Source: a virus (taxonomy: Duplodnaviria; Caudoviricetes). From it: a stretch of 42,137 nucleotides of DNA. A program made the translations under genes and the position numbers. The DNA lies in the IMG/VR virus record IMGVR_UViG_3300027710_000050, positions 1 to 42,137 of that record, one strand, 5' to 3'. How positions within the stretch are numbered: the first letter of the stretch is position 1; each line of letters opens with the position of its first letter. Under the pieces are notes generated by a model that worked only from the letters and a program-made list of their open reading frames with translations, was not told the origin of the DNA and ran no database searches. This document shows positions 19,209 to 34,901 of this stretch, piece by piece.

Positions 19209-22200
19209 ATGCCTAATTATGATGATATTGTCGGTCAGTTACCACAAGACACCACGCCTAATCAAAACCTTTATTTGGCCAGTGATGTTAATCCTGATGA
19301 GGAGGCATCATTACGCAACTTGTCTAAACAGACAGGTATGCCAGTGGAGGCGTTGCGTTTAAAGCCTGTGGCTCAAGAAGTTAAACGCTCATTAACTGCC
19401 AATAAATACGACAATATCATCAAAACATCGCCTAAGTTGGCGCAATTTTTATCTAATCCTAATAATGCGAATATCTCTCATGATGATGTCGATAATTTAG
19501 GCTTGTTAGAGCGCACTTTTCGTCAATTAACAGGCGGCAACATCGAAAATGTTGGCATGACTTCTGGCGGTTTTGGCGAGTTATTCAACATTGGCCAGCG
19601 TAAGTTAATCAACACGCTCTCTGATTTGTTATTGCCTCCAACATCTGACGGTCAAAAAATAAATCCTGAGTCTTTATATGGGCCAATGATTGGCGAGGGA
19701 TTAAAAGACACGGGCAAAATCGTTAAAGATTATGCGCGTAATACCGTTAAAGTACCTCAAAATCAGCAAACCTTCTATGACCAAGTTGTCGGCGGCATTG
19801 GTCAGGTGACTTCACAGGTTATTACTACACCTTTAACGCTTGGTACTGGATTATATGCCCAAGGTGCTGATGCTATGGCTGAGAAAATAGCCACAGATAA
19901 CGCACCACAGGACACCAAAGACAATGCTGTTTTGCTTGGCTCATTAGTGACAGGTTTAACCGAAAAGTGGGCATTGGATAAATTAACGGGGCCACTAGAC
20001 ACAAAAGTAAAATCTCAACTTGGCCAAGTGTTAGCAAGAATTGGTATTGCAGGCGGGGCTGAGGGCGTTCAGGAGTTTTCGGAAAACCTTTTACAAGACA
20101 CCATTCGTCAACAAATGGTTAATCCAAATGCCACTATTGATGTGATGCAATCGGTAGAGGAGGGGCAAGTAGGGGCGACAGTTGGCGCGGTTGTACGTTC
20201 TTTTGTTGAGGCAGGGCTACACATTAAAAAGCGCAACGATGCGGCATTAAAGGCACAGGCAGAACAAGAACAACTAAACAATATCAACCAACTATCACAA
20301 GCAAGCAGAGTGTTACAGCGTGATCAAGCCACGTTTGAGGATTACTTAAAATCTGTGACTGACGAACAAGGCGCGGTGACTGATTTATATATTGATGCTC
20401 AAACATTGGCACAATCAGGCCATGCTCAAAAAATTACAGAAGTCATGCCGTCCGTAGCTGAGCAATTGCCTAATGCTTTGGCGACTAATGGCGTTATCCG
20501 CTTAGATGTAGCTGAGTATGCCTCGCGTGTAGGCAATCAGGAGTTTGCTCAGTCATTGGTACAGGATTTAAAAACCGACCCTGATGGATTTAGTGCAAAC
20601 GAGGCCGCCGATTTTGTTAAGACCAAAGCAGCCGAGGAACTACAAAAAGAATTTGAAATTGCCAACAAAAACGCGCAACAGTCGGGCGAATTTGAGCAAA
20701 GCAAAGAGAAAGTCAGACAGGCTATCTTTGACGGACTAAGCTCAACAAAACGCTTTAGAGGTGACATTAACGAGGCTTATTCTAATTTGATGGCTTCTTA
20801 TTTTGCCACTCGTGCGCGTAATCTTGGCCAAACGCCTGAGCAAGTGTTTAATGATTACACGGTTAAGATTGCAAGCAAGGTGAGTGGTGGGGATGTTTTG
20901 GGGCAGTCATCGCCTGAGTTTTCAACAAAGGAACAAGCAGAGGCAAAGGCTAGAATACTTCAAAAACAGCTCGATAGACAAAAGGCAAAACTAACACCTG
21001 ACAACATAAAATTTAAAGAGTTGGAAATTAAGCGTATTTCTGATGCTTCTAAATCTTTGCCAAGTGAAAGCAATTTGTCAGTAAATACCGATATTGCTTA
21101 TGATGAAACCAAATTCACGCACAAAGCACCAAGCCCAAAAAACGGGCAATCTATTTTAGATTTTAATCAACGGATAGAGTCTGATGGTTTTTCTTTTGAT
21201 AATTTGGCTCAGGCGTTTATTGATGATGTAAAGAATAATCCAAACAAAAAAGCCACTATTTATCGTGCTGTTGCTGTTGATGGCAATGCTGATATTAAAA
21301 ACGGCGATTGGGTAGCATCAACAAAACAGTATGCTGAAAATCACGGCATGAGTGTTTTTGGTGAGGGAAAGTATAAGATTATTGAAAAAGAGGTATTGCC
21401 AAAAAACATCTTTACGGATGGTAATAGTATTCATGAGTTTGGTTATGTTGAGGATGGGGATGTTTTAAATAAGTCAAAAACTACTGAGCAAAACCAATTC
21501 ACCGAGATGCTATCCCAAGCAGACAAGATGATTGCCGAGCAAGGCCAATTACTTGCACCTAATGGGAAACCATCTAAACTAAACCGTGTGCAATGGGCGC
21601 AAGTACGAACTGATAACTTTAAGACATGGTTTGGAGATTGGGAAAATGACCCTGCCAATGCGTCAAAAGTGGTTGATGATAATGGTGAGCCGTTGGTGGT
21701 TTATCATGGGACTAATGCTAGTTTTGATGAGTTTAAAAAGAATAATGTTATTCATGGATTAGAGTATGGCGATGGTTTTTATTTTACAACAGATAAAAAA
21801 CAGGCAGAAAATTATGGTGAAAAAATCAAAGATATTTTTCTAAATATTAGAAATCCGTTTAATCCATTTGGAGGTAATAAAAAAAGAGCTTATTTTGATA
21901 ATACAGAAGACGCTAAATTGCTATTCAGGCAAAAAATGGCAGAATTTGAAAAAGAAGGCAAAGGCTATGATAGATTTAAGCCGATAATAAACAAGGAAGA
22001 CAACGGATTTTCAATAGATTATTCAACAGCCTATGATTTAGAGCCTAGCTTATTTAATGATGGGTACAATCGCGGAAATATATTCGTTGCTTTTGACCCC
22101 ACACAAATAAAATCCGCCACGGGCAACAATGGCGAGTTTAATCCTGCCGACCCCAATATATTAAAACAGTCCTCCGATGTAGACCTCGGCTCATTCGACC

Positions 22201-25200
22201 CTTTACGCAACATTATCACCTTATTAGCCGATGCCAACTTATCAACGTTCCTGCATGAGTCAATGCACTTCTTTTTAGAAACAGATATTACGATTGCGGC
22301 TCAAATCATTAGCCAAAATGATATTTTTGATGTTTCTACCATGAGCAAGGGCGAGCAACAACACCTTAGAGATGTGTCGTTATTGCTTAAGCAAGTAGGC
22401 TTAGAGGGTGACATTCAACAACAAATTACCGCTTGGCAAACAATGGATTTTGAGGAAAAGCGTACTTATCACGAAAAAGTAGCCGAGATGGGGGAAAAAT
22501 ACTTCTTTGAGGGGCGCGCTCCAAGCATCGAGCTAATTCCTGTGTTTAATCGCTTCCGTAATTTTATGGTGAGCGTTTATAAGAGTATTAAGAAGTTTTT
22601 AACTGCTAATCCTGACGCTGGCAAAATCAACAATGAAGTGCGTATGGTCTTTGACCGTATGATTGCTACAGAAGAAGAAATTGCCTTAGCTGAAAAAGCA
22701 CGAAGCATGATGCCATTGGTAGGCACAGCCGAAGATCTTGGCATGACCGAGCAAGAGTTTGCAGACTACCAAGAGCAAGCCAAGCAAGCCACACAAGACG
22801 CAATCACCGAGCTACAGACAAAAGGCTTGCGTGACATGAAGTGGCTTAGAAACTTGCAAAGCAAGGAGCTAAAACGCTTGCAGAAGATGGCACAGGCTCA
22901 ACGTGCTGAGGTTAGACGCACAGTTCGCGCTGAGGTGTTATCTGAGTCTGTTTATCGTGCTTACAGCATGCTTACGGCACGTATGACCGATGAGGACAAG
23001 TTGCCTGTACAGCCTAAGGTTAAACCATCTAATAATGTTGTTGACCCAACAACAGATAGCTTGTTTGTGGCTATTGCCAAATTGGGTGGCATTAACTTTG
23101 ATGATGCGGTGCGCGAATGGGGTGTTGACCCTAAAGAAAACATAAAAACGCCTATTTTTGGCAAGCCAGTATTGCGTAAAAAAGGCGGCAGAAGTATTGA
23201 TGATATAGCACGGGCATTGGCCGAGGATAGTTATATTGAGGTCGATGACAGTGGACAATATGACACTAGCGAGCTTGAGCAGCGATTCAATGATGAGTTG
23301 TTTGGCACCATCCAATACAGTGTTTTACGCGATTATAGTCTTAAGGAGCAAAAGGCGGGTGATGGCATTGACTTAACAGGCGTTAATGCTCTGCGTTTTG
23401 ATTACGATAGCTTATTGAATATGGATATTGGCAAAGAGGTGTTTGATATTCTTGTGGCGCGTAAGATGACTTCAAAAACTGGCGGCATTCATCCTGATTT
23501 TGTGGCCGAGTATTTACAGGCTGATGGCTGGGAATCGGGTTCTGAGTTGGTTAACGCTTTGGCAACAAGTAACACGCCACAAGAAGAAATAGAAAACCGC
23601 ACCGACCAACGCATGACCGAGCAATATGCTGAATTATCCTCTGAGGCTGCTATTCAACGGGCGGCAGATATTGCTGTGCATAATGAGGCAAGGTCAAGGC
23701 TGATTGAGACTGAATTTAAGGCATTGGCCAAGGCATTAAATGAGCGCGTACCTGATGGCCAAGACAAAAACAGCAGGGCTAGAACACTGGCGGCTTTGCC
23801 TATGGCGGCTAAAGAATTGGCTAACCGTGTTATCTCGCGTGTGCGTGTGCGTGATGTTCGACCCTCTCAGTATGCGGCGGCCGAGACAAGAGCAATTAGA
23901 GCCTTTGAACGTGCGCGAACTATTGAGGAACGTATCACTGAAAAGAAAAACCAGTTGATTAACTTCCATTTGACCAGAGAGGCTTATGCAGCCCAAGAAG
24001 AAGTTAAGGTCGCTTTGCGCTATGTGAAAAAGTTTGATAGTAAAAATATATCTAAGCGCATTGAGCCTGATTACATGGAGCAAATCGAAGCGTTTTTGGA
24101 AAAGTACGATTTTAGACAGGTATCGAATAAGGCTGTTGATAAGCGTAAATCTTTAAAAAAATGGATTGCAGCACAAGAGGAATTGGGCTTATCACCCGAT
24201 ATTGACCAACGCTTAATAGATGATGCCAATAAAACACATTACAAAGACTTAACCGTGGATGAGTTTAGGGGCGTGGTTGAGGCAATCAAGCAAATTGAAC
24301 ACATGGGGCGGTTAAAGACTAAGCTGCTCAATGCCCAAAAACAGCGCAATTTTGAAAAGGTCAGGACTTTGCTGCTTGAGGCTTTGGCTAGTAACTCCAA
24401 AAACGCAGAAATCTTAAACCGAGAGCCAAGCAACAGCGAAGAACGTAAAAGATATGGAGCTAAAGGCTTTTTGTTGGCGCATTTAAAAGGTTCAACATTG
24501 GCCAGAGAATTTGACGGCGGCAAGGATGGTGGTATTTGGTGGGATGTGCTGATTAGACCTGCCAATGATGCGGCAGACATGGAGACGCTATTAAACCATG
24601 AGGCAAGCATGAAACTTACTGAGATATTAAAGCCAATTTTAGCTAACTCGAAATGGTTTAAAGGATTGGAGGGTAAGGGAAAGACTTACACTATGGGCGA
24701 TAAACAGCGTACTTTTAACCATGCTCAACGTATTGTTATCGCGCTGAACATGGGTAACGCTGGCAATACTCAAAGGTTGCTTGATGGCGAGGGGTGGACA
24801 AGGGCGGATGTAGAGCAGATTTTGCAGGATTTTAACGCGGATGAGTTGCAAGCTATTCAGCAGGTTTGGGATCTGTTTGAGTCATATCGCCCAAAGGTCG
24901 CTGAATTGGAAAAGCGTATTTATGGCAAAGAGCCTGAATGGATTGAAGCGGTACCATTAACCGTAAAATCTAAAGACGGCCAAGAATTAACATTGAGAGG
25001 CGGTTATTTTCCGATTAAATACGACAAAGAGGCAAGCAGTCGCACCGAAGAACTGGCAAACGCTGAGACAGCAAAACAGGCCATGCAAGGCGCATTTAGC
25101 GCGGCCAATGTTAGACGCTCGTTTGCAAAATCTCGCGTAGCAGAGGTTAAAGGCCGTCCATTGTCCTATGATATGGCGGGGATGTTTTCTAGTTTGCGCG

Positions 25201-26390
25201 AGTTGCATCACTATTTGTCATGGGCTGAATGGGTAATTGATGCCAAGCGCGTTATTGGCGATGACAAGGTAAAAGATGCAATTAGAAGCAATTATGGCGG
25301 CAAAGTATTGAGAGAGCTTAAGGGATGGGTTGATGCTGTTGCCAAAGGCGACCAGTCCGAAAATGATGCGGTTGCTCGGTTTTTTAATAAAGTCAGGGCG
25401 AATGTTAGTATTGCAGGGCTTGGCTTTAATGTGATGACAGGTGCATTGCAGTTGACTGGCTTTTTAAATGGTGCTGTTCGCAATGGTTATAAGTATCAGG
25501 CTATAGGCTTGTCAAAATTAGCATCTAATCCATTAGCACTTGCTAAAGAGATTCGTGCAAAATCCAAATTTATGGATGCTCGTACAAATACCATGTTCCA
25601 AGAATTAAACGAGAATATGAATAAGATTCGCGGGGACATGGGCATACAAGACACAATGATTAAGCATGGGTTTACCTTAATCCGTATCATGCAGCAACAG
25701 GTTGATGTGGTGACATGGCAGGGAGCTTACGAGAAAGCCGTTGCGGAGGGACATGGCGATGACAAAGCTATTGCTATTGCTGACCAAGTGGTGAGGGATA
25801 CGCAAGGCTCTGGCTTATGGCATGACTTGTCTTTTGTGCAAAGAGAGCGTAATTTGAAGTTGTTTACTGTGTTTTATAACTATATGGGAACAGTTTTAAA
25901 CACGATTTACACTCAAGCCAAGACCGCGCCAAACAAGAAAAAGCTAATTGCTGATATGCTGCTTTTAACGGTTGCCGTTCCTGCTATGACTGCATTATTG
26001 CGTAATGGATTAACACCAAGCGATGATGATGAGGGCGAAGACTGGCTCTGGAAGGTGTTGCGCGAAATAACAGGCAGTGCATTAGGTTTGTTTGTTGCCT
26101 TTAGAGAGATTCAGGCTTTATCCAATCTATTTGTGGATGACCCTGTGGATTATTCAGGCACAACAGGCACAAAAGCCTTTGCTGATATTATGAAGTTTGC
26201 AGAACAAGCAAAACAAGGTGAGGCTGACGATGGATTTACTCGTGCATCTATTAATTTGGCTGGTGATTTGTTTGGCATTCCATCAGCACAAATCAATAAG
26301 ACTATTAAGGGTGCTGATGCTATCGAGCAAGGCAAGACAGATGGTGCGGTCGAGGATGCTCAGGCTTTGATGTTTGGGTATAAGCAGTAA
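19209..26390 (+). CDS. giant ejection/polyvalent protein with ADP-ribosyltransferase-like and HExxH domains
   Basis: FKTWFGDW..SKVVD.NGEPLVVYHGT..GFYFT..F.PTQIKSATGN (ART-PolyVal); STFLHESMH. Confidence 0.8.
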   Translation: MPNYDDIVGQLPQDTTPNQNLYLASDVNPDEEASLRNLSKQTGMPVEALRLKPVAQEVKRSLTANKYDNIIKTSPKLAQFLSNPNNANISHDDVDNLGLLERTFRQLTGGNIENVGMTSGGFGELFNIGQRKLINTLSDLLLPPTSDGQKINPESLYGPMIGEGLKDTGKIVKDYARNTVKVPQNQQTFYDQVVGGIGQVTSQVITTPLTLGTGLYAQGADAMAEKIATDNAPQDTKDNAVLLGSLVTGLTEKWALDKLTGPLDTKVKSQLGQVLARIGIAGGAEGVQEFSENLLQDTIRQQMVNPNATIDVMQSVEEGQVGATVGAVVRSFVEAGLHIKKRNDAALKAQAEQEQLNNINQLSQASRVLQRDQATFEDYLKSVTDEQGAVTDLYIDAQTLAQSGHAQKITEVMPSVAEQLPNALATNGVIRLDVAEYASRVGNQEFAQSLVQDLKTDPDGFSANEAADFVKTKAAEELQKEFEIANKNAQQSGEFEQSKEKVRQAIFDGLSSTKRFRGDINEAYSNLMASYFATRARNLGQTPEQVFNDYTVKIASKVSGGDVLGQSSPEFSTKEQAEAKARILQKQLDRQKAKLTPDNIKFKELEIKRISDASKSLPSESNLSVNTDIAYDETKFTHKAPSPKNGQSILDFNQRIESDGFSFDNLAQAFIDDVKNNPNKKATIYRAVAVDGNADIKNGDWVASTKQYAENHGMSVFGEGKYKIIEKEVLPKNIFTDGNSIHEFGYVEDGDVLNKSKTTEQNQFTEMLSQADKMIAEQGQLLAPNGKPSKLNRVQWAQVRTDNFKTWFGDWENDPANASKVVDDNGEPLVVYHGTNASFDEFKKNNVIHGLEYGDGFYFTTDKKQAENYGEKIKDIFLNIRNPFNPFGGNKKRAYFDNTEDAKLLFRQKMAEFEKEGKGYDRFKPIINKEDNGFSIDYSTAYDLEPSLFNDGYNRGNIFVAFDPTQIKSATGNNGEFNPADPNILKQSSDVDLGSFDPLRNIITLLADANLSTFLHESMHFFLETDITIAAQIISQNDIFDVSTMSKGEQQHLRDVSLLLKQVGLEGDIQQQITAWQTMDFEEKRTYHEKVAEMGEKYFFEGRAPSIELIPVFNRFRNFMVSVYKSIKKFLTANPDAGKINNEVRMVFDRMIATEEEIALAEKARSMMPLVGTAEDLGMTEQEFADYQEQAKQATQDAITELQTKGLRDMKWLRNLQSKELKRLQKMAQAQRAEVRRTVRAEVLSESVYRAYSMLTARMTDEDKLPVQPKVKPSNNVVDPTTDSLFVAIAKLGGINFDDAVREWGVDPKENIKTPIFGKPVLRKKGGRSIDDIARALAEDSYIEVDDSGQYDTSELEQRFNDELFGTIQYSVLRDYSLKEQKAGDGIDLTGVNALRFDYDSLLNMDIGKEVFDILVARKMTSKTGGIHPDFVAEYLQADGWESGSELVNALATSNTPQEEIENRTDQRMTEQYAELSSEAAIQRAADIAVHNEARSRLIETEFKALAKALNERVPDGQDKNSRARTLAALPMAAKELANRVISRVRVRDVRPSQYAAAETRAIRAFERARTIEERITEKKNQLINFHLTREAYAAQEEVKVALRYVKKFDSKNISKRIEPDYMEQIEAFLEKYDFRQVSNKAVDKRKSLKKWIAAQEELGLSPDIDQRLIDDANKTHYKDLTVDEFRGVVEAIKQIEHMGRLKTKLLNAQKQRNFEKVRTLLLEALASNSKNAEILNREPSNSEERKRYGAKGFLLAHLKGSTLAREFDGGKDGGIWWDVLIRPANDAADMETLLNHEASMKLTEILKPILANSKWFKGLEGKGKTYTMGDKQRTFNHAQRIVIALNMGNAGNTQRLLDGEGWTRADVEQILQDFNADELQAIQQVWDLFESYRPKVAELEKRIYGKEPEWIEAVPLTVKSKDGQELTLRGGYFPIKYDKEASSRTEELANAETAKQAMQGAFSAANVRRSFAKSRVAEVKGRPLSYDMAGMFSSLRELHHYLSWAEWVIDAKRVIGDDKVKDAIRSNYGGKVLRELKGWVDAVAKGDQSENDAVARFFNKVRANVSIAGLGFNVMTGALQLTGFLNGAVRNGYKYQAIGLSKLASNPLALAKEIRAKSKFMDARTNTMFQELNENMNKIRGDMGIQDTMIKHGFTLIRIMQQQVDVVTWQGAYEKAVAEGHGDDKAIAIADQVVRDTQGSGLWHDLSFVQRERNLKLFTVFYNYMGTVLNTIYTQAKTAPNKKKLIADMLLLTVAVPAMTALLRNGLTPSDDDEGEDWLWKVLREITGSALGLFVAFREIQALSNLFVDDPVDYSGTTGTKAFADIMKFAEQAKQGEADDGFTRASINLAGDLFGIPSAQINKTIKGADAIEQGKTDGAVEDAQALMFGYKQ

Positions 26391-29845: not shown

Positions 29846-29859
29846 TAAATTGTCTTACA

Positions 29860-29925
29860 TGATTATGCGTCACTAATGACGTAAAATAATACGTTAATTA
29901 GGACGCATATACCTAGTTATGCGTC
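29860..29925 (+). other. attI-like recombination site (crossover G/TT at 29916-29917)
   Basis: CGCATAT-ACCTA-GTTATGC inverted L/R boxes 5 bp apart; upstream direct repeat TTATGCGTC; core complementary to R'' of the first attC. Confidence 0.6.
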
Positions 29926-29935
29926 TATTTCAGTG

Positions 29936-30625
29936 TTATTGCAAAGGCAAAGACATTTGCACACGCTGTACCAAGTAAGCACGGTCTTGACGTAAAAACT
30001 CTGTTTCGCGGTCATGTTGTTGGCTTAAAAACAAACTTGCCTCGACTTCTAAGGACTTTAAGACGTTGACGGCTTGGTCATACATGGTCACAGGTAATTT
30101 AGCGGCCACTTCGCCACTGGCTAAAGCGCGAACGTGTTTCCATGCCCAATGCTCCCAAGAACCGCTACGGTGAAAGCCACAGGCAATACTATTTACCATT
30201 AAGCGCAAGTTGTGATATTGCGTGGGCGTGATGGTTTCGATAGCGGCTTTGGCAGTAGGCAAAACATAGCTACCTGTTTTCATCACTGTATCAATTACCT
30301 CAGCCGCCCAATTCGTAAACGCATCGGCTTCGGGTTTGTTGCTACGAAAAGCAATTTTGCATAAGCCTTTAAAGTTGACAGTTTGTAGGCTTTGCTCGCT
30401 CTTAATATCAGTACCATGTTGATTAGTTTGGGGGGTTGTAAGTTTCACAACCCCCCTCCAATCTTCGGGGATAATGTTCAAGGAACGTACACCTGCCCAA
30501 TAAACACCAAGCACAGCAAACACGTCTTTAGCGACAAACCAAAGTTCATTATTTTGAAATACGGTACGGACTTTGTGGGCTTCTTGAAATGTAAAAACTT
30601 CGGGGATAGCAATAGCAGCGTTCAT
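29936..30625 (-). CDS. Bro-N domain antirepressor
   Basis: FTFQ...VRTV....LWFVAKDV...FRSNKPEA..F..W.......KTGSY. Confidence 0.85.
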   Translation of the reverse strand: MNAAIAIPEVFTFQEAHKVRTVFQNNELWFVAKDVFAVLGVYWAGVRSLNIIPEDWRGVVKLTTPQTNQHGTDIKSEQSLQTVNFKGLCKIAFRSNKPEADAFTNWAAEVIDTVMKTGSYVLPTAKAAIETITPTQYHNLRLMVNSIACGFHRSGSWEHWAWKHVRALASGEVAAKLPVTMYDQAVNVLKSLEVEASLFLSQQHDRETEFLRQDRAYLVQRVQMSLPLQ

Positions 30626-30675
30626 AATGGTTTCCTGTATAACGGTATATTTTCCGCAACCCGATTGTCACAGCG

Positions 30676-30753
30676 GGTGGCAGACCGAACGGGGGTGACA
30701 ATGCCAGATACAGGTCTGACCAGCCAAATGGCTGCCCCATTCAGTCCACCATA
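30676..30753 (-). ncRNA. c4-like antisense RNA
   Basis: Minus-strand multi-stem fold closed by GGTGG/CCACC carrying TTGTCAC, complementary to GTGACAA targets at 30665-30671 and 30829-30835; upstream of an antirepressor as in P1/P7. Confidence 0.75.
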
Positions 30754-30866
30754 ACAGGCAAACTGAACTTTCGGACACAAAAAAACCGCCTAAACAAGGT
30801 TTGGCGGGTGTCCGCCTGCATTATCGGGTTGTCACGCCCGACTACTCAATGTGGAGTAGTGGAGCA

Positions 30867-30895
30867 ATCATATCCTTAACCCCATTCTTTGTCAA
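30867..30895 (-). promoter_or_regulatory. sigma70 promoter of the c4-ant unit
   Basis: TTGACA-17-TATGAT. Confidence 0.75.
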
Positions 30896-30900
30896 ACCAC

Positions 30901-30997
30901 GCATAACTCACGGTTTAAGCCCGACAAACACCCAGCCTTTAATTGCTTGAGTCGGCTGTCAGTGTGGGCGTTTGCGGCTTAACCTAAGCAGTTAGAT
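30901..30997 (+). repeat. attC-like site 1
   Basis: GCATAAC-TCACG-GTTTAAGC...GCTTAAC-CTAAGCA-GTTAGAT. Confidence 0.85.
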
Positions 30998-30998
30998 A

Positions 30999-31187
30999 CT
31001 AGCGTTCAGGCATCGCTATAAGCTTGCCATCAATTTTTACATAGCTTATTTCTATGCTTTGGTGTTCTTGCTCACTTGGTTCAAGATTGCAAACTAGGTT
31101 TTCCTTGTTTAAATACCCCATCTCATCATCAGGCCAGTCAACAATCTCTGTTACTGTTGACGTGTAAGTTACAACTAATCTAGCCAT
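30999..31187 (-). CDS. cassette ORF, acidic hypothetical protein
   Basis: AGGAGAGG RBS; fills the space between attC1 and attC2. Confidence 0.75.
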   Translation of the reverse strand: MARLVVTYTSTVTEIVDWPDDEMGYLNKENLVCNLEPSEQEHQSIEISYVKIDGKLIAMPER

Positions 31188-31200
31188 TTTCCTCTCCTGT

Positions 31201-31322
31201 ATCTAACTCTCATTGCAGTGTGACAAGTACCCAGCCACTAATTGCTTAATTTTTGATGCTTTTGGCAACTACTGCATTTTTTGCAGCAGTTGGGTACTTG
31301 CACCTGAATTTTTTAGTTAGGC
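31201..31322 (+). repeat. attC-like site 2
   Basis: ATCTAAC-TCTC-ATTGCAGT...CCTGAAT-TTTTTA-GTTAGGC. Confidence 0.8.
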
Positions 31323-31550
31323 ATCACGCTTGTAATTAGGCGTAAGCCCTAGTCTTTCACGCAATACAACAATGTCGGTATGTCTTTTACCAACCCAATC
31401 GTCATTTAAAGCATCAAGATACCGCTCTGTTAATGCTCTTGATGTTTTGTCGTGATGAAGATAGCGATTATCTTCTTCAAGCATAATTTTAAAGCGTTCT
31501 ATTTTTGCTTCGAGTTCTTCAAGCCGTTTTTTTGTACCAAAAGGCCACAT
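31317..31550 (-). CDS. cassette ORF, hypothetical protein
   Basis: GAGG RBS; stop codon inside the GTTAG core. Confidence 0.75.
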   Translation of the reverse strand: MWPFGTKKRLEELEAKIERFKIMLEEDNRYLHHDKTSRALTERYLDALNDDWVGKRHTDIVVLRERLGLTPNYKRDA

Positions 31551-31582
31551 ATAATTACCTCATTTGTTTTATCGCAAATCAT

Positions 31583-31705
31583 GCCTAACTCGCGGTTCAA
31601 GTCAGATGCTAACCCAGCATCTAACTGTGTATTTTTCTCTGTCATTTCATCACCTCGTTAATTCAATAAAAGTGGGGTTAGCACTGCTTAACCTAGTAGT
31701 TAGAC
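31583..31705 (+). repeat. attC-like site 3
   Basis: GCCTAAC-TCGCG-GTTCAAGT...GCTTAAC-CTAGTA-GTTAGAC. Confidence 0.85.
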
Positions 31706-31969
31706 GCTACTACGCGCTTTAATCATTGCATCGGCAATACTGTAAGCATCAATAGCAATACCCATTCTCCATTCTTCGTCGTACCCGTGCTTTTCCGCAT
31801 AATCACAATAGTTTTTCATAACAGTTGGCAGTGCTTTTGCTGCGAAATAATCACGAATTGTTAGCCCACCAACAGCTTCATATTCTTCAACATAAGCACC
31901 GTCGGTTCTCCCGCCTGCCATAGTCACTTTTTTGGCTTTTAGCCCTGCGTTTACTAATTCATTGCTCAT
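31700..31969 (-). CDS. cassette ORF, common phage protein (G.T.RDYFAAKA family)
   Basis: GLTIRDYFAAKAL...AYSIADAMIKAR. Confidence 0.8.
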   Translation of the reverse strand: MSNELVNAGLKAKKVTMAGGRTDGAYVEEYEAVGGLTIRDYFAAKALPTVMKNYCDYAEKHGYDEEWRMGIAIDAYSIADAMIKARSSV

Positions 31970-31998
31970 TATAAAATCCTCTTAATTTTCACTACGCT

Positions 31999-32090
31999 TT
32001 CTAACTCTCATTCAAGCCGATAAATACCCAGTCAATCATCAAGTGTTCTCTGTCAGTGTTGGCATTTACGGCTTAATTTTTTAGTTAGGT
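31999..32090 (+). repeat. attC-like site 4
   Basis: TTCTAAC-TCTC-ATTCAAGCCGA...CGGCTTAAT-TTTTTA-GTTAGGT; arms resemble the aadA-type attC. Confidence 0.85.
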
Positions 32091-32342
32091 TTTAACCCCT
32101 TTGCTCTTTAATAGTTTTTTCTTTGCGCGTTTACACGCAGAGATAATCACGTCAAGACTTAACGGGTTTCCTGTTACTATCGTCAATATTGGGTTTAATT
32201 CTGCAACTGTATTTGCGCCAGTATCCACAACTTCGCCTACATTTGCTGGGTGATTACTTATAGCAATGCCAGCCCACTCGCCATTAGTGTCATCGTAAAT
32301 ATCAGTTACAATCTTATTTCCACATCCAAGCTCTATTTGCAT
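32085..32342 (-). CDS. cassette ORF, hypothetical protein (start MQIELG)
   Basis: GGAG RBS before ATG 32342; stop in the core. Confidence 0.7.
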   Translation of the reverse strand: MQIELGCGNKIVTDIYDDTNGEWAGIAISNHPANVGEVVDTGANTVAELNPILTIVTGNPLSLDVIISACKRAKKKLLKSKGVKT

Positions 32343-32354
32343 TTTAGTCTCCAA

Positions 32355-32475
32355 ACCTAACATTGCAATCAAGCAGGAACGCACCCTAGCCGATTGCTAC
32401 GTTAATATTAAATCTTGGCAACATTGCCATTGTTTACATCAAAGAGGGTGCGTCCTCTTATTGCCTGTGTTAGGC
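32355..32475 (+). repeat. attC-like site 5
   Basis: ACCTAAC-ATTGC-AATCAAGC...TCTTATT-GCCTGT-GTTAGGC. Confidence 0.8.
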
Positions 32476-32631
32476 AGCCACAACAATAACCCTATCCGCA
32501 GTTAAGCACCCGTACCCGCTTTGGTGTAAATACTTCAAAGTGCCATTATCGCTTACAAGCTGAAATATAGGCTCATTTCCGCCTGCAACATCTTCAAATA
32601 CAAACTGGCTTATCTGTCTTAAAATTACCAT
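32470..32631 (-). CDS. cassette ORF, 53 aa
   Basis: Read manually: MVILRQISQFVFEDVAGG...IVVAA; TAATG coupling; stop in the core. Confidence 0.6.
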   Translation of the reverse strand: MVILRQISQFVFEDVAGGNEPIFQLVSDNGTLKYLHQSGYGCLTADRVIVVAA

Positions 32632-32906
32632 TATTTTGCATCCTCAATAGGTTCAAGATTGCCGTTTTGCGCGGTTCTATACATACCCTTTGGTAAATAC
32701 TTGCGCTCAAATTGCTCATGCCATTTACCAAACTCAGTAGGCGTTTTATCGGAGTGCAATGTTGGCGCACAAGCACTACAAAGCAACATTTCGCGCCGTT
32801 CTTCAATCCCTTCCCAGTCAAAATGTTTTGCCATTGGCTTAATGCCTTGACAAGACAACGCTGTATTTTCAACGCAACCGCATTTTTCACACTGAAATAA
32901 GCTCAT
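32631..32906 (-). CDS. cassette ORF, Cys-rich Zn-binding phage protein
   Basis: MSLFQCEKCGCVENTA...LCSAC...GKWH. Confidence 0.75.
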   Translation of the reverse strand: MSLFQCEKCGCVENTALSCQGIKPMAKHFDWEGIEERREMLLCSACAPTLHSDKTPTEFGKWHEQFERKYLPKGMYRTAQNGNLEPIEDAK

Positions 32907-33076
32907 TAAAACTCGCCCCTATCTTTTCTTGGTGCTGTTACTTCAAAACCAAGTTGCCATATTATTGCACCAATAAATGAACCAGCTATTGCCGAGTCTT
33001 TATCCGCACCAAAAATAATATACGTTAGCAAAAATGCAAAAAATGCAGGTATTGCCATAAAAAATAATCGCGCCAT
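32906..33076 (-). CDS. cassette ORF, 56-aa two-TM protein
   Basis: Read manually: MARLFFMAIPAFFAFLLTYIIFG...; TAATG coupling. Confidence 0.6.
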   Translation of the reverse strand: MARLFFMAIPAFFAFLLTYIIFGADKDSAIAGSFIGAIIWQLGFEVTAPRKDRGEF

Positions 33077-33104
33077 AACACTATTCTCATCTATCGCTAA
33101 AGTT

Positions 33105-33188
33105 GCCTAACTCTACGTCAACGCGACCAGTACCCAATCAACAAAATACCGTTTGCCTGTGGCTGGCGCGTTACGCACTTAGTTAGAA
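33105..33188 (+). repeat. attC-like site 6
   Basis: GCCTAAC-TCTA-CGTCAACG...CGTTACG-CACTTA-GTTAGAA. Confidence 0.8.
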
Positions 33189-33189
33189 C

Positions 33190-33390
33190 CTACTTTTTAA
33201 CAAACTTATTGCAAAGTGATGTTGGCATAACATTAAACTTAAAATCAGGATTTCTAGCGCAAGAATCATCACCAATCCTAAGTGGCGGTCTTTTGTTTTT
33301 TTCAAAAAACATGCAGCTTTCGCAGTTTGGAGAAAACTCGCTGTAGCAGTTTTCTTTCTTTAAGTGTTCTACAATCTCTTTCTCGTTCAT
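33190..33390 (-). CDS. cassette ORF, Cys-rich protein (start MNEKE)
   Basis: AGGAG RBS; CESC...C...LCNKF. Confidence 0.7.
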   Translation of the reverse strand: MNEKEIVEHLKKENCYSEFSPNCESCMFFEKNKRPPLRIGDDSCARNPDFKFNVMPTSLCNKFVKK

Positions 33391-33407
33391 CGCAATATCT
33401 CCTGCGG

Positions 33408-33430
33408 TTCTAGCTCTCATTCAAGCCGAC
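33408..33430 (+). repeat. truncated, mutated attC-like half site 7
   Basis: TTCTAGC-TCTC-ATTCAAGCCGAC (AAC to AGC), right arm absent. Confidence 0.7.
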
Positions 33431-33434
33431 CAAT

Positions 33435-33461
33435 AAAAAACCCACTTTTTAGGGTGGGTTT
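33435..33461 (-). terminator. intrinsic terminator
   Basis: Minus strand AAACCCAC-CCTAAAAA-GTGGGTTTTTTA. Confidence 0.65.
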
Positions 33462-33472
33462 GTTTGTGTTGC

Positions 33473-33680
33473 TTTTTGCGTGTCGTTTGCGTGTCATTCT
33501 GTAGGCACTTATAGGCACTTATAGACACACTAGAAAACAAAAAAGCCTAGATTTCTCTAGGCTTTTCAATGGTTTGATTGGTGGAGATGGCGGGAATTGA
33601 ACCCGCCAACAATATAAAAATAACCTTTTATTATCAATATATTGCAGCTATGCCTCTTTTTTGCGTGTCGTTTGCGTGTC
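33473..33680. other. attP region with arm-type sites
   Basis: TTTTTGCGTGTCGTTTGCGTGTC at 33473-33495 and 33658-33680; TAGGCACTTA tandem at 33502-33528; terminator 33540-33566. Confidence 0.8.
33579..33606 (-). other. attP core: 3' end of tmRNA (ssrA)
   Basis: GCGGGTTCAATTCCCGCCATCTCCACCA, T-arm plus acceptor only. Confidence 0.8.
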
Positions 33681-34901
33681 GATTTGCTCAAAATCAGCAT
33701 AATTCCCCGATGGTTTATAGCCATTTTTCTTGCTTGAGTCGGGTATCCATTTTCCATAGTTGCGCGTAATCATTTCAGCGTCAACGTGTCCCATTTGTTG
33801 AGACAACCACCAGATATTCTCACCACGCGAAAGCAGGGTGCTGGCAAACGTATGACGAGTTTGGTATGGATTACGATAGCGTACACCAGCCTTTTTTAAA
33901 ACGTGTTCCCACAGTGTCTTTCTAATCTGTGCGTCCGTTTCCCAAGGGGTCTTAGTGCGCGGATTGTGAAATACTCGCTTACCCTCAATAAATGTATGCT
34001 CTTTTTGAGCATTAAGCGCGGCAAGTGCCAAAGGCCAAAGCATCACTTCTCTTGTGCCAGCCGCGGTCTTAGTTCCCTTTTCTGTTTTTTCAACCACGGC
34101 ACGAGACACCATAGCTTTGTTGTTCACAAAATCAATGTCCTGCCATTCAAGCGCGATTAGTTCGCTGGTGCGTAGTCCCGACCAAAAAGCAAACTGGATT
34201 AAGTTTTTACCTTGGCCATCACAATTATTAAGTATCGCTTTAATTTCGTCCGTATTAAACGGGTCAATTTCGTATGTGCTTTTAGTTGTGGTTTTAGTTA
34301 AAAGTTTATTTAGAGCGATTTTATCAAGTGGATTATTTTGTATTAGGCCGTCATTTAGTGCGTCATCTAATACAGAACGTAGGGGAGTTAATATGTTTCG
34401 TACTGTTTTAGCAGTTTTGTTTTGAGTTAATACCCATTCTTTAATGTGGGTCGGTTCAATCTCAATAACGGGAATTGAACCAAAGGCAGGGATTAAATGA
34501 CCATGTACTATTTTTTGATAGCCATTAAAAGTTGACGGCGATATTTTGCCGTTGTCGGTGGCTTGTTGGTACAAAGCAAGAAAGTCGGCCAATAAGTCGC
34601 CAATGGTTTTATCAGTGACAGCATGGCCAAACAATCTCGCTTTTGATGAATCAGGAAAATAAACCGAATAGTCAAACGTGTCGCGTTCAATAGCGTTTTG
34701 AATTTCTGACTTGAGCCGTTCGGCGTATTTGATGTTTGCAGCCGTGTGAGGCAGGGCAAGGTTTTCACGGCATCGAACGCCGCGATAAGAAAATGAGATT
34801 TGGATGGATTGCGTGTGCTTATGCTCACGCAGCATTATGCCGCGTGGAGCTTTTGGCTTTTTATCGACTTTTGTGTCGCTTGGTTTCCGTTCTCCACCCA
34901 T
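33648..34901 (-). CDS. int: phage tyrosine integrase with arm-binding N-terminus (DUF3596-like)
   Basis: FSYRGVRCRE; SGLRTSEL, YQTRHTFAS, QMGH, Y catalytic motifs. Confidence 0.95.
   Translation of the reverse strand: MGGERKPSDTKVDKKPKAPRGIMLREHKHTQSIQISFSYRGVRCRENLALPHTAANIKYAERLKSEIQNAIERDTFDYSVYFPDSSKARLFGHAVTDKTIGDLLADFLALYQQATDNGKISPSTFNGYQKIVHGHLIPAFGSIPVIEIEPTHIKEWVLTQNKTAKTVRNILTPLRSVLDDALNDGLIQNNPLDKIALNKLLTKTTTKSTYEIDPFNTDEIKAILNNCDGQGKNLIQFAFWSGLRTSELIALEWQDIDFVNNKAMVSRAVVEKTEKGTKTAAGTREVMLWPLALAALNAQKEHTFIEGKRVFHNPRTKTPWETDAQIRKTLWEHVLKKAGVRYRNPYQTRHTFASTLLSRGENIWWLSQQMGHVDAEMITRNYGKWIPDSSKKNGYKPSGNYADFEQIDTQTTRKKEA

What the first reader, a model, noticed from the sequence alone, without database searches (positions are those of the whole stretch)
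29916..33430. Phage-borne integron-like cassette array without an integron integrase
Seen: six complete attC-like sites (84-123 bp) and one half site, each with R''-L''-variable stem-L'-R' and an unpaired base in L''. Cores flanking each cassette are complementary, as expected for units that once circularised: GTTATGCGT/ACGCATAAC, GTTAGATAC/GTATCTAAC, GTTAGGCAT/ATGCCTAAC, GTTAGAC/TTCTAAC (1 mismatch), GTTAGGTTT/AAACCTAAC, GTTAGGCA/TGCCTAAC, GTTAGAACC/GGTTCTAGC (1 mismatch). Sites share an ACCC(A)G-like motif, suggesting one family. The cargo looks like phage genes, not resistance genes. The only recombinase is an ordinary arm-type phage Int. Inference: the phage uses host IntI (SOS-induced in many integrons, like prophage induction) to shuffle accessory or anti-defence genes. 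To my knowledge this is not a well-described phage system.
Basis: partly seen in the sequence, partly recalled or inferred. Interest (0 to 1): 0.93.

Follow-up and report, generated by a model that had tools for sequence, protein, structure and literature searches.

The report
Phage borrows host integron, genes flipped
This phage carries a copy of the integron docking site of its likely bacterial host, followed by seven small gene cassettes whose genes all face backwards, and it likely borrows the host's integron enzyme to swap them, since such backwards cassettes also turn up in unrelated phages and in host chromosomes.

Summary
Confirmed and extended. There are six genuine attC sites and one truncated site. 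Their cores pair as cassettes require (best of 5,040 orders).

First, the left end (about 29855-29922) is a host-type attI. It matches, with identical spacing, the site beside a true IntI gene in Agitococcus-group genomes, and it recurs without intI in many phage-like contigs, nearly always with a different first cassette. Second, every cargo gene is inverted relative to its attC: 42 of 46 viral cassettes reversed, none forward, 4 uncalled. Host chromosomal cassettes are mostly forward.

One host integron holds four inverted phage-type cassettes at its attI. Two complete relatives lack any tyrosine recombinase. Best reading: an integrase-less integron serviced by host IntI (inferred; no assay, no circles seen).

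SOS induction is unsupported (no LexA in 9 genus genomes), and anti-defence cargo is unproven here. Phage CALINs are published (Qi 2023). The attI copy plus systematic inversion was not found in my literature searches. This scan has noted inverted phage arrays before on other DNA.

The parts
29855..29922 (+). Host-type attI (accessory repeats, L box, 5-bp spacer, core G|TTATGC; crossover after G29916)
   Evidence: Aligns without gaps over the 52 nt before GTT to the sites upstream of intI in G001 and G004; recurs in 37 other loci
29917..30991 (+). Cassette 1 (attI-proximal, newest under the integron model): antirepressor module plus attC1
   Evidence: Cores match 9/9; homologues in five runs begin at 29914, one behind a host-type attC arm
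29936..30625 (-). Bro-N antirepressor gene, 229 aa
   Evidence: PHROG anti-repressor 8.6e-20; PF02498 1.5e-11
30673..30895 (-). C4 antisense RNA (30673-30756), a1/b1-target and IsrK-like leader (30779-30873) and a sigma70-like promoter (30895-30867) inside cassette 1
   Evidence: Rfam RF01695 57 bits, over its gathering score of 45; RF03163 and RF01394 below theirs; TTGACA-17-TATGAT, 11 of 12
30901..30997 (+). attC1, 97 bp
30999..31187 (-). Cassette 2 gene, 62 aa, no family
31201..31322 (+). attC2, 122 bp
31317..31550 (-). Cassette 3 gene, 77 aa, no family; stop codon inside the core
   Evidence: 38-member cluster; 95% match in L015 starting exactly at G31316
31499..31645 (-). Short leader ORF that starts inside attC3 and overlaps the start of the cassette 3 gene
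   Evidence: 8 of 47 phage attC have such an RBS+start, 0 of 37 host attC
31583..31705 (+). attC3, 123 bp (G16/A20/T24)
31700..31969 (-). Cassette 4 gene, 89 aa, phage family of unknown function
   Evidence: phrog_2201 8.3e-17; Atlas look-alikes unnamed, mostly viral
31999..32090 (+). attC4, 92 bp; near-identical copies flank other genes in other phages
32085..32342 (-). Cassette 5 gene, 85 aa, no family
32355..32475 (+). attC5, 121 bp
32470..33076 (-). Cassette 6: three genes (32470-32631, 32631-32906 phrog_11861, 32906-33076), probably a fusion of cassettes
   Evidence: Middle gene sits in other cassettes in L003, L006, L018; a contig joins 32468 to 33182, skipping 713 bp
33105..33188 (+). 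attC6, 84 bp
33190..33390 (-). Cassette 7 gene, 66 aa (76 aa from an upstream ATG), no family
33408..33430 (+). Truncated attC7 (R'' and L'' arm only); would lock cassette 7 in place
   Evidence: a similar half site ends the array of L012
33438..33461 (.). Terminator-like hairpin on both strands between attP and the array
33475..33680 (.). attP of the phage's own Int: arm-type repeats, terminator 33540-33567, core 33577-33606 = 3' end of tmRNA gene
   Evidence: 30 of 30 bases match the ssrA end in G001
33648..34901 (-). Arm-type phage integrase (ssrA integration; not part of the cassette system)
   Evidence: 80% identical Int in G001 has attP but no array

Best explanation
The phage carries a copy of a host-type integron attachment site (attI) and seven attC-bounded cassettes whose genes lie on the opposite strand to those of ordinary integrons, and the host's chromosomal IntI likely inserts, excises and reorders them in trans. 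Shown from sequence: genuine attC anatomy and strand; an attI homologous to the one beside IntI in Agitococcus-group chromosomes; content that changes exactly at G|TT; near-total inversion in phages; the same cassettes in unrelated phages and at a host attI. Inferred: IntI recombines the bottom strand as usual, so the mobile unit is a gene plus the attC at its 5' side, and new cassettes enter at the 3' end of the phage transcript. The genes would be read by phage early transcription coming from the far end of the array (or an internal promoter, as in cassette 1), not from a Pc in front of attI. Inverted cassettes would therefore be expressed in phages and not from Pc in the host, and forward host cassettes (some anti-phage) would be silent if a phage captured them. 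The phage's own Int only integrates the genome at ssrA.
For: attC control: a model built only from phage sites scored the class 1 attC sites it found higher on the strand opposite their genes (4 of 4 sites), but the window's sites on the gene strand (these six were in the training set). Host: the attC4 pattern hit an Agitococcus MAG; 30/30 ssrA core and an 80% identical Int in that genome; the same attC family in 8 of 9 genus genomes; IntI over the cut-off in 5 of 9, 53% identical to IntI1. attI. Of 33 loci with enough sequence, 28 have different first cassettes; identity to the window is 0.83 at -29..-6 (outside the search pattern) and 0.25 at +21..+39. Orientation: 42 reversed, 0 forward, 4 uncalled of 46 viral cassettes; 9 forward, 3 reversed, 3 uncalled of 15 in an intI-linked host array. 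Behind attI copies without intI: 17 reversed, 1 forward, 9 too short of 27. L166 is a host chromosome with intI, attI and four inverted cassettes; their matches in L017 and L045 start exactly at crossovers. No tyrosine recombinase in 10 of 10 related viral records, two of them complete. In 21 gene-bearing homologous pairs the right-hand attC is kept (>=0.8) in 5, the left-hand in 1. Forward host cassettes: 5 of 37 match defence models.
Against: No recombination assay. No free cassette circle was seen in 8 runs, all contigs. In 15 of the 21 homologous pairs neither attC is kept, and contigs join the same gene to other attC types (31570->32001, 33078->32001), so something besides IntI reshuffles or rebuilds cassettes. 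Two terminator-like hairpins lie between int and the array and no promoter was found at the array's head, so how cassettes 2-7 are expressed is open. Phage attC sites are a related but distinct set (median nearest host site 0.61, nearest phage site 0.75; 24 of 47 are <=96 bp, host sites 121-127 bp). Host assignment rests on MAGs; similar contigs also sit in a Saccharibacteria bin, probably by mis-binning. The viral loci were found with patterns taken from this system, so the counts are not a random sample.
Confidence: 0.8

Rival explanations
1. The array is an inert piece of a host integron captured by the phage (ordinary CALIN by transduction-like pick-up).
For: It lies next to attP, where host DNA is often picked up; the attI is host-type; the last attC is truncated; Vibrio phages with captured integron fragments are published (PMC9892861).
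Against: Host arrays are mostly forward with 121-127 bp attC; the cargo is phage-type and reversed; the same attI sits after tail genes or inside early operons of unrelated phages with 28 different first cassettes; a relative with the same Int/attP has no array.
Confidence: 0.05
2. The attC-like repeats act mainly as homology joints for the phage's RecET system or as translation/regulatory modules, and IntI plays little part now.
For: RecE and RecT are encoded; genes swap attC partners, with joints near or inside the attC arms; 8 of 47 phage sites encode leader peptides.
Against: Exact core pairing per cassette, breakpoints at G|TT rather than spread along the repeat, kept extrahelical bases and a conserved attI all need a site-specific enzyme. 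RecET probably explains the attC swapping as a second process.
Confidence: 0.1
3. A dedicated phage-encoded or non-IntI recombinase, supplied by other phages, moves the cassettes (as earlier notes of this scan proposed for Bacteroidota phages).
For: Phage attC sites differ from host sites; earlier scan notes e1-9705115 and e1-6262769 (unchecked leads).
Against: No PF00589 match in 10 of 10 related viral records; the attI is the one beside canonical IntI, and that integron has taken up such cassettes (L166).
Confidence: 0.04
4. Ordinary cassettes were inserted backwards by top-strand recombination.
For: This route exists (PMC5027507, Fig. 1D legend).
Against: It would invert the attC together with its gene. 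Here the attC sites keep the polarity of attI and only the genes are reversed.
Confidence: 0.01

Closest known systems
Phage-borne CALINs and integrons (Qi et al. 2023, PMC9892861)
   Same: attC clusters without intI in phage genomes; methyltransferase cargo; sites recombined by IntI1 in their assay; host-integrase use is the natural reading.
   Different: In the parts I read (abstract, part of methods and results, section 3.4, supplement part 1 of 2; figures and the Dryad file not seen) no inversion of genes against attC and no host-type attI copied into virulent or temperate phages as a docking site is described, apart from captured integrons. Their TJE1 array is canonical; their MW202573 array is inverted by my test.
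Sedentary chromosomal integrons (here the Agitococcus-group integron; Vibrio type in PMC5371416 and bioRxiv 2024.07.02.601686)
   Same: Same attI, same attC family, IntI 53% identical to IntI1, anti-phage cassettes in the host array.
   Different: No intI and no Pc-side expression; genes reversed; small phage-type genes (median insert 320 vs 552 bp); shorter and more varied attC.
Class 1 integron (IntI1, attI1, attC)
   Same: R''-L''-VTS-L'-R' anatomy, extrahelical G and T, 5-bp L-R spacer in attI, terminal cassette with a truncated attC (the qacEdelta1 parallel is recalled).
   Different: No integrase, no resistance genes, opposite gene polarity.
C4/IsrK antisense-controlled antirepressor modules (P1/P7 immI recalled; Gifsy-1 IsrK, PMC4825925, search listing only)
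   Same: Promoter, C4 RNA, target sites and Bro-N antirepressor in one unit.
   Different: Packaged as a mobile integron cassette.

Membership tests
attC site | R'' (RYYYAAC) and R' (GTTRRRY) cores with L''/L' boxes, folding as a hairpin | tested here: met
attC site | Extrahelical bases on the L'' arm near positions 16, 20, 24 | tested here: met
   PMC5027507 passages
attC site | Similarity to known attC by a covariance model | tested here: met
   Reverse test: a model of phage sites finds 4 class 1 attC sites at E 1.6e-6 to 2e-4; my finder found 8 in the same loci, so the model missed 4. IntegronFinder's own model was not available.
attC site | Bottom-strand recombination by IntI | not testable with these tools
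   Indirect only: breakpoints at G|TT
Integron cassette | Complementary cores at the two ends of each unit; unit found in other contexts | tested here: met
Integron cassette | Gene on the top strand, 5' of its attC, readable from Pc (usual, not universal) | tested here: not met
   All seven reversed
Complete integron | intI gene beside the array | tested here: not met
Complete integron | attI site | tested here: met
Complete integron | Pc promoter reading through attI into the array | tested here: inconclusive
   No + strand promoter-like site before attI in the scan from 29700; irrelevant to reversed genes
CALIN | Two or more attC sites with no neighbouring intI | tested here: met
SOS-regulated integron | LexA repressor and LexA box at intI | tested here: inconclusive
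   0 of 9 incomplete genomes over the LexA cut-off; best hit UmuD-like; box not tested formally

The most novel reading that the evidence does not exclude
Phages and their host run one integron economy with an orientation code: phages dock copies of the host attI, build their own pool of cassettes from phage genes placed backwards to attC, and hijack host IntI to shuffle them. Each side then expresses only its own pool, and host defence cassettes are silent in a phage. The repeated pairing of one gene with different attC sites would make these phages a place to watch cassettes being made, a long-open question. A bolder extension (about 0.05): hosts that capture inverted cassettes at attI, as in L166, transcribe antisense RNA against phage early genes from Pc.
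Probability: 0.4. Interest if true: 0.88.

Novelty: new variant of a known kind. Interest (0 to 1): 0.74.

Why it matters
Integrons are seen as bacterial devices and, lately, as stores of anti-phage defences. Here phages appear to use the same machine for their own accessory genes (antirepressor, methyltransferases), with a canonical IntI and an identifiable host genus. That makes it directly testable with standard attC x attI assays. It would add a site-specific route to phage mosaicism, put phage genes into host integrons, and offer a handle on how cassettes are created, since gene polarity against attC is reversed and gene-attC pairings change often.

Tried and rejected
Relatives by integrase gave one contig that ends before the array; the tail-protein query gave none. 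Cultured phages hold no counterpart of the array, only short matches to two cargo genes. attC4 has no match in plasmids. Rfam has no attC hit in 28.5-35.5 kb. Pfam, NCBIfam, PADLOC and the ESM Atlas gave no function for cassettes 2-7. A first orientation count by longest ORF left many cassettes uncalled and was replaced by a coding model. Of the 3 'reversed' calls in the host intI-linked array only one is a phage-type cassette; one looks like an inserted IS gene and one is a short ORF in a gene-less repeat. Mixed MAG contigs (28 forward, 27 reversed, 8 uncalled) could not be split cleanly into host and prophage and were not used for the host count. Covariation was not counted on the attC alignment. 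RNA-run contigs cannot show strand or level, so no claim of expression is made. The joint 31714->31585 has unknown sequence between its sides and is not counted as a circle. Top-strand insertion, simple capture and a dedicated recombinase were rejected as above. PMC13676570 (passages) found no CALIN in 71 Acinetobacter phages screened, so the system is not general in the family.
Full report
Context. The window is a 42-kb temperate phage record with cI, replication, terminase, head, tail, RecE/RecT, xis and int genes. No terminal repeat was found, so completeness is judged from gene content only. The array lies between the last tail gene (ends 29819) and attP. The attP core (33577-33606) is the 3' end of a tmRNA gene, flanked by arm-type repeats.

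Observation. Extra bases sit on the L'' arm and the minus strand folds as the bottom strand. Site 3 shows G16/A20/T24, as described for attC-oxa2 (PMC5027507, passages). The seven core pairs carry 5 mismatches over 9 nt; 1 of 5,040 orderings, the observed one, is as good. Shuffled windows gave 2 hits >=13.5 in 20 and none >=17 in 20. The phage Int is not an IntI (39.9 bits against 265).

First addition: inversion. All cargo genes are on the minus strand, which is the attC bottom strand. As a strand control, a covariance model built from 33 phage sites found 4 attC sites in four class 1 integron loci and scored each higher on the strand opposite its gene. My finder placed the top strand on the gene strand for 8 sites there, with one stray hit. 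In the window the model scores on the gene strand (these sites were in the training set). A 20-mer of attC4 found 19 stretches in viral contigs, belonging to phages with very different gene sets. With a coding model, 42 of 46 distinct viral cassettes were reversed, 0 forward, 4 uncalled; 5 of 5 inter-attC cassettes in the window were reversed. These loci were found with patterns from this system and are not a random sample.

Host. The attC4 pattern hit an Agitococcus MAG and four short contigs in a Saccharibacteria bin. The Agitococcus genome has the 30-bp ssrA core without mismatch and an 80% identical Int whose attP is followed by a tail-like gene and no array. The same attC family occurs in 8 of 9 genus genomes and IntI over the family cut-off in 5 of 9, 53% identical to IntI1. 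In the intI-linked array of G003, 9 of 15 distinct cassettes are forward, 3 reversed, 3 uncalled; only one of the 3 is a phage-type cassette. Host forward cassettes have 121-127 bp attC and 5 of 37 match defence models, one weakly. Phage cassettes have 84-125 bp attC and 5 of 41 are DNA methyltransferases. The viral proteins were not scanned against PADLOC, except the window's 9, which gave none.

Second addition: attI. The left end of the array aligns without gaps to the site upstream of intI in G001 and G004, with G|TT 52 nt after a shared motif. That motif gave 40 loci. I dropped the window's own contig and two chance matches, leaving 37; five have intI directly upstream. Dropping two more that could not be aligned in register, 33 of 35 had enough downstream sequence and showed 28 different first cassettes. 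Identity to the window was 0.83 at -29..-6, 1.0 at GTTA and 0.25 at +21..+39; the 0.93 at -52..-30 is by construction. Among 27 distinct loci with no intI in the flank, the first cassette was reversed in 17, forward in 1, too short in 9; many lie just after tail genes. A second attI type, like that of G005 and G007, docks arrays in other phages.

Exchange. L166 is a host chromosomal stretch with intI, this attI and four inverted cassettes. Its first cassette matches L017 from the crossover (90%), its third matches L045 from the crossover (96%). Host array L061 holds reversed cassettes 76% and 83% identical in protein to viral ones. In public runs, homologues of cassette 1 start at 29914 in five runs, once behind a host-type attC arm. 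Loose ends cluster at the cores. One contig joins 32468 to 33182, skipping cassette 6; it may come from another phage. No circle was seen. Ten related viral records, two complete, have no tyrosine recombinase.

Mechanism. Shown: sites, strands, turnover at G|TT, a host IntI with the same attI. Inferred: host IntI acts in trans on the bottom strand. The unit is gene plus right-hand attC (kept in 5 of 21 gene-bearing homologous pairs, left-hand in 1), so new cassettes enter at the 3' end of the phage transcript. In many relatives the array continues an early operon on the same strand. In this window two terminator-like hairpins intervene, so cassettes 2-7 would need antitermination or unseen promoters; cassette 1 has its own promoter and C4 control. 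A possible benefit, untested because the origin was not located: genes co-directional with a fork would put the bottom strand on the lagging-strand template, whereas the leading-strand placement limits excision in chromosomal integrons (PMC5371416, abstract and section 12). Against a pure IntI story: 15 of 21 pairs keep neither attC and the same gene joins different attC types, pointing to RecET or repeated cassette making.

SOS coupling is unsupported: 0 of 9 incomplete genomes reach the LexA cut-off, and the best hit is UmuD-like beside umuC. Anti-defence cargo is not shown in this window.

Known work. Qi et al. 2023 (PMC9892861; abstract, part 2 of 7 of the text, section 3.4, supplement part 1 of 2; figures and the Dryad file not seen) report 17 phage CALINs and IntI1 recombination of five of six sites tested. 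I checked three of their phages: TJE1 is canonical, MW202573 is inverted, and P12002L gave no clear site with my finder. The text I read does not mention inversion. Searches found no paper on inverted phage cassettes or copied host attI; the library lacks most subscription journals. Also seen as passages only: PMC8876359, PMC13676570, PMC8618304, bioRxiv 2024.07.02.601686. This scan has noted inverted phage arrays many times on other DNA (325 notes held the search words), often with Bacteroidota hosts and a different recombinase. They are unchecked leads, not support. The idea of separate phage and host pools also stands in one of them. What this case adds from my own tests is a canonical IntI, an exact host attI and phage-type cassettes at a host attI.

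Verdict. Real feature; a new variant of the integron/CALIN kind: an integrase-less, attI-bearing array of inverted cassettes, likely serviced by host IntI (0.8). Interest 0.74.

Noticed in passing
L060, L061, L062 (G003 host integron): A gene-less cassette of about 213 bp is repeated at least nine times in the host array; it may carry a promoter or an RNA.
   Followed up: no
L181:2066-2706 (MW202573): A published phage CALIN (Qi 2023, Fig. 2D) has its genes on the attC bottom strand, i.e. inverted, while TJE1 is canonical.
   Followed up: partly
window 31499-31645 and seven other phage attC sites: The attC itself carries an RBS and start codon and encodes an N-terminal or leader peptide; 8 of 47 phage sites, 0 of 37 host sites.
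   Followed up: partly
L163:1811: An attI of this type lies about 300 bp downstream of a cassette-type gene, apparently inside an array.
   Followed up: no
L034:4300-5140 (G001:C110): A two-gene cassette resembling a HicA/HicB toxin-antitoxin pair (by eye, not scanned) with this attC family interrupts another gene outside the integron, as at an attG-type site.
   Followed up: no
window 33408-33461 and L012: The attI-distal attC is truncated after the same left arm in two unrelated phages, and contigs in two runs join that arm to the same terminator region.
   Followed up: partly
window 19209-26390: A 2,393-aa gene (phrog_9880, with a ParB-like stretch) among the virion genes, probably an injected multi-domain protein.
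   Followed up: no
L102: The Agitococcus-group genomes show a umuDC pair with a 203-aa UmuD-like protein but no LexA over the cut-off, so intI regulation there is unknown.
   Followed up: partly
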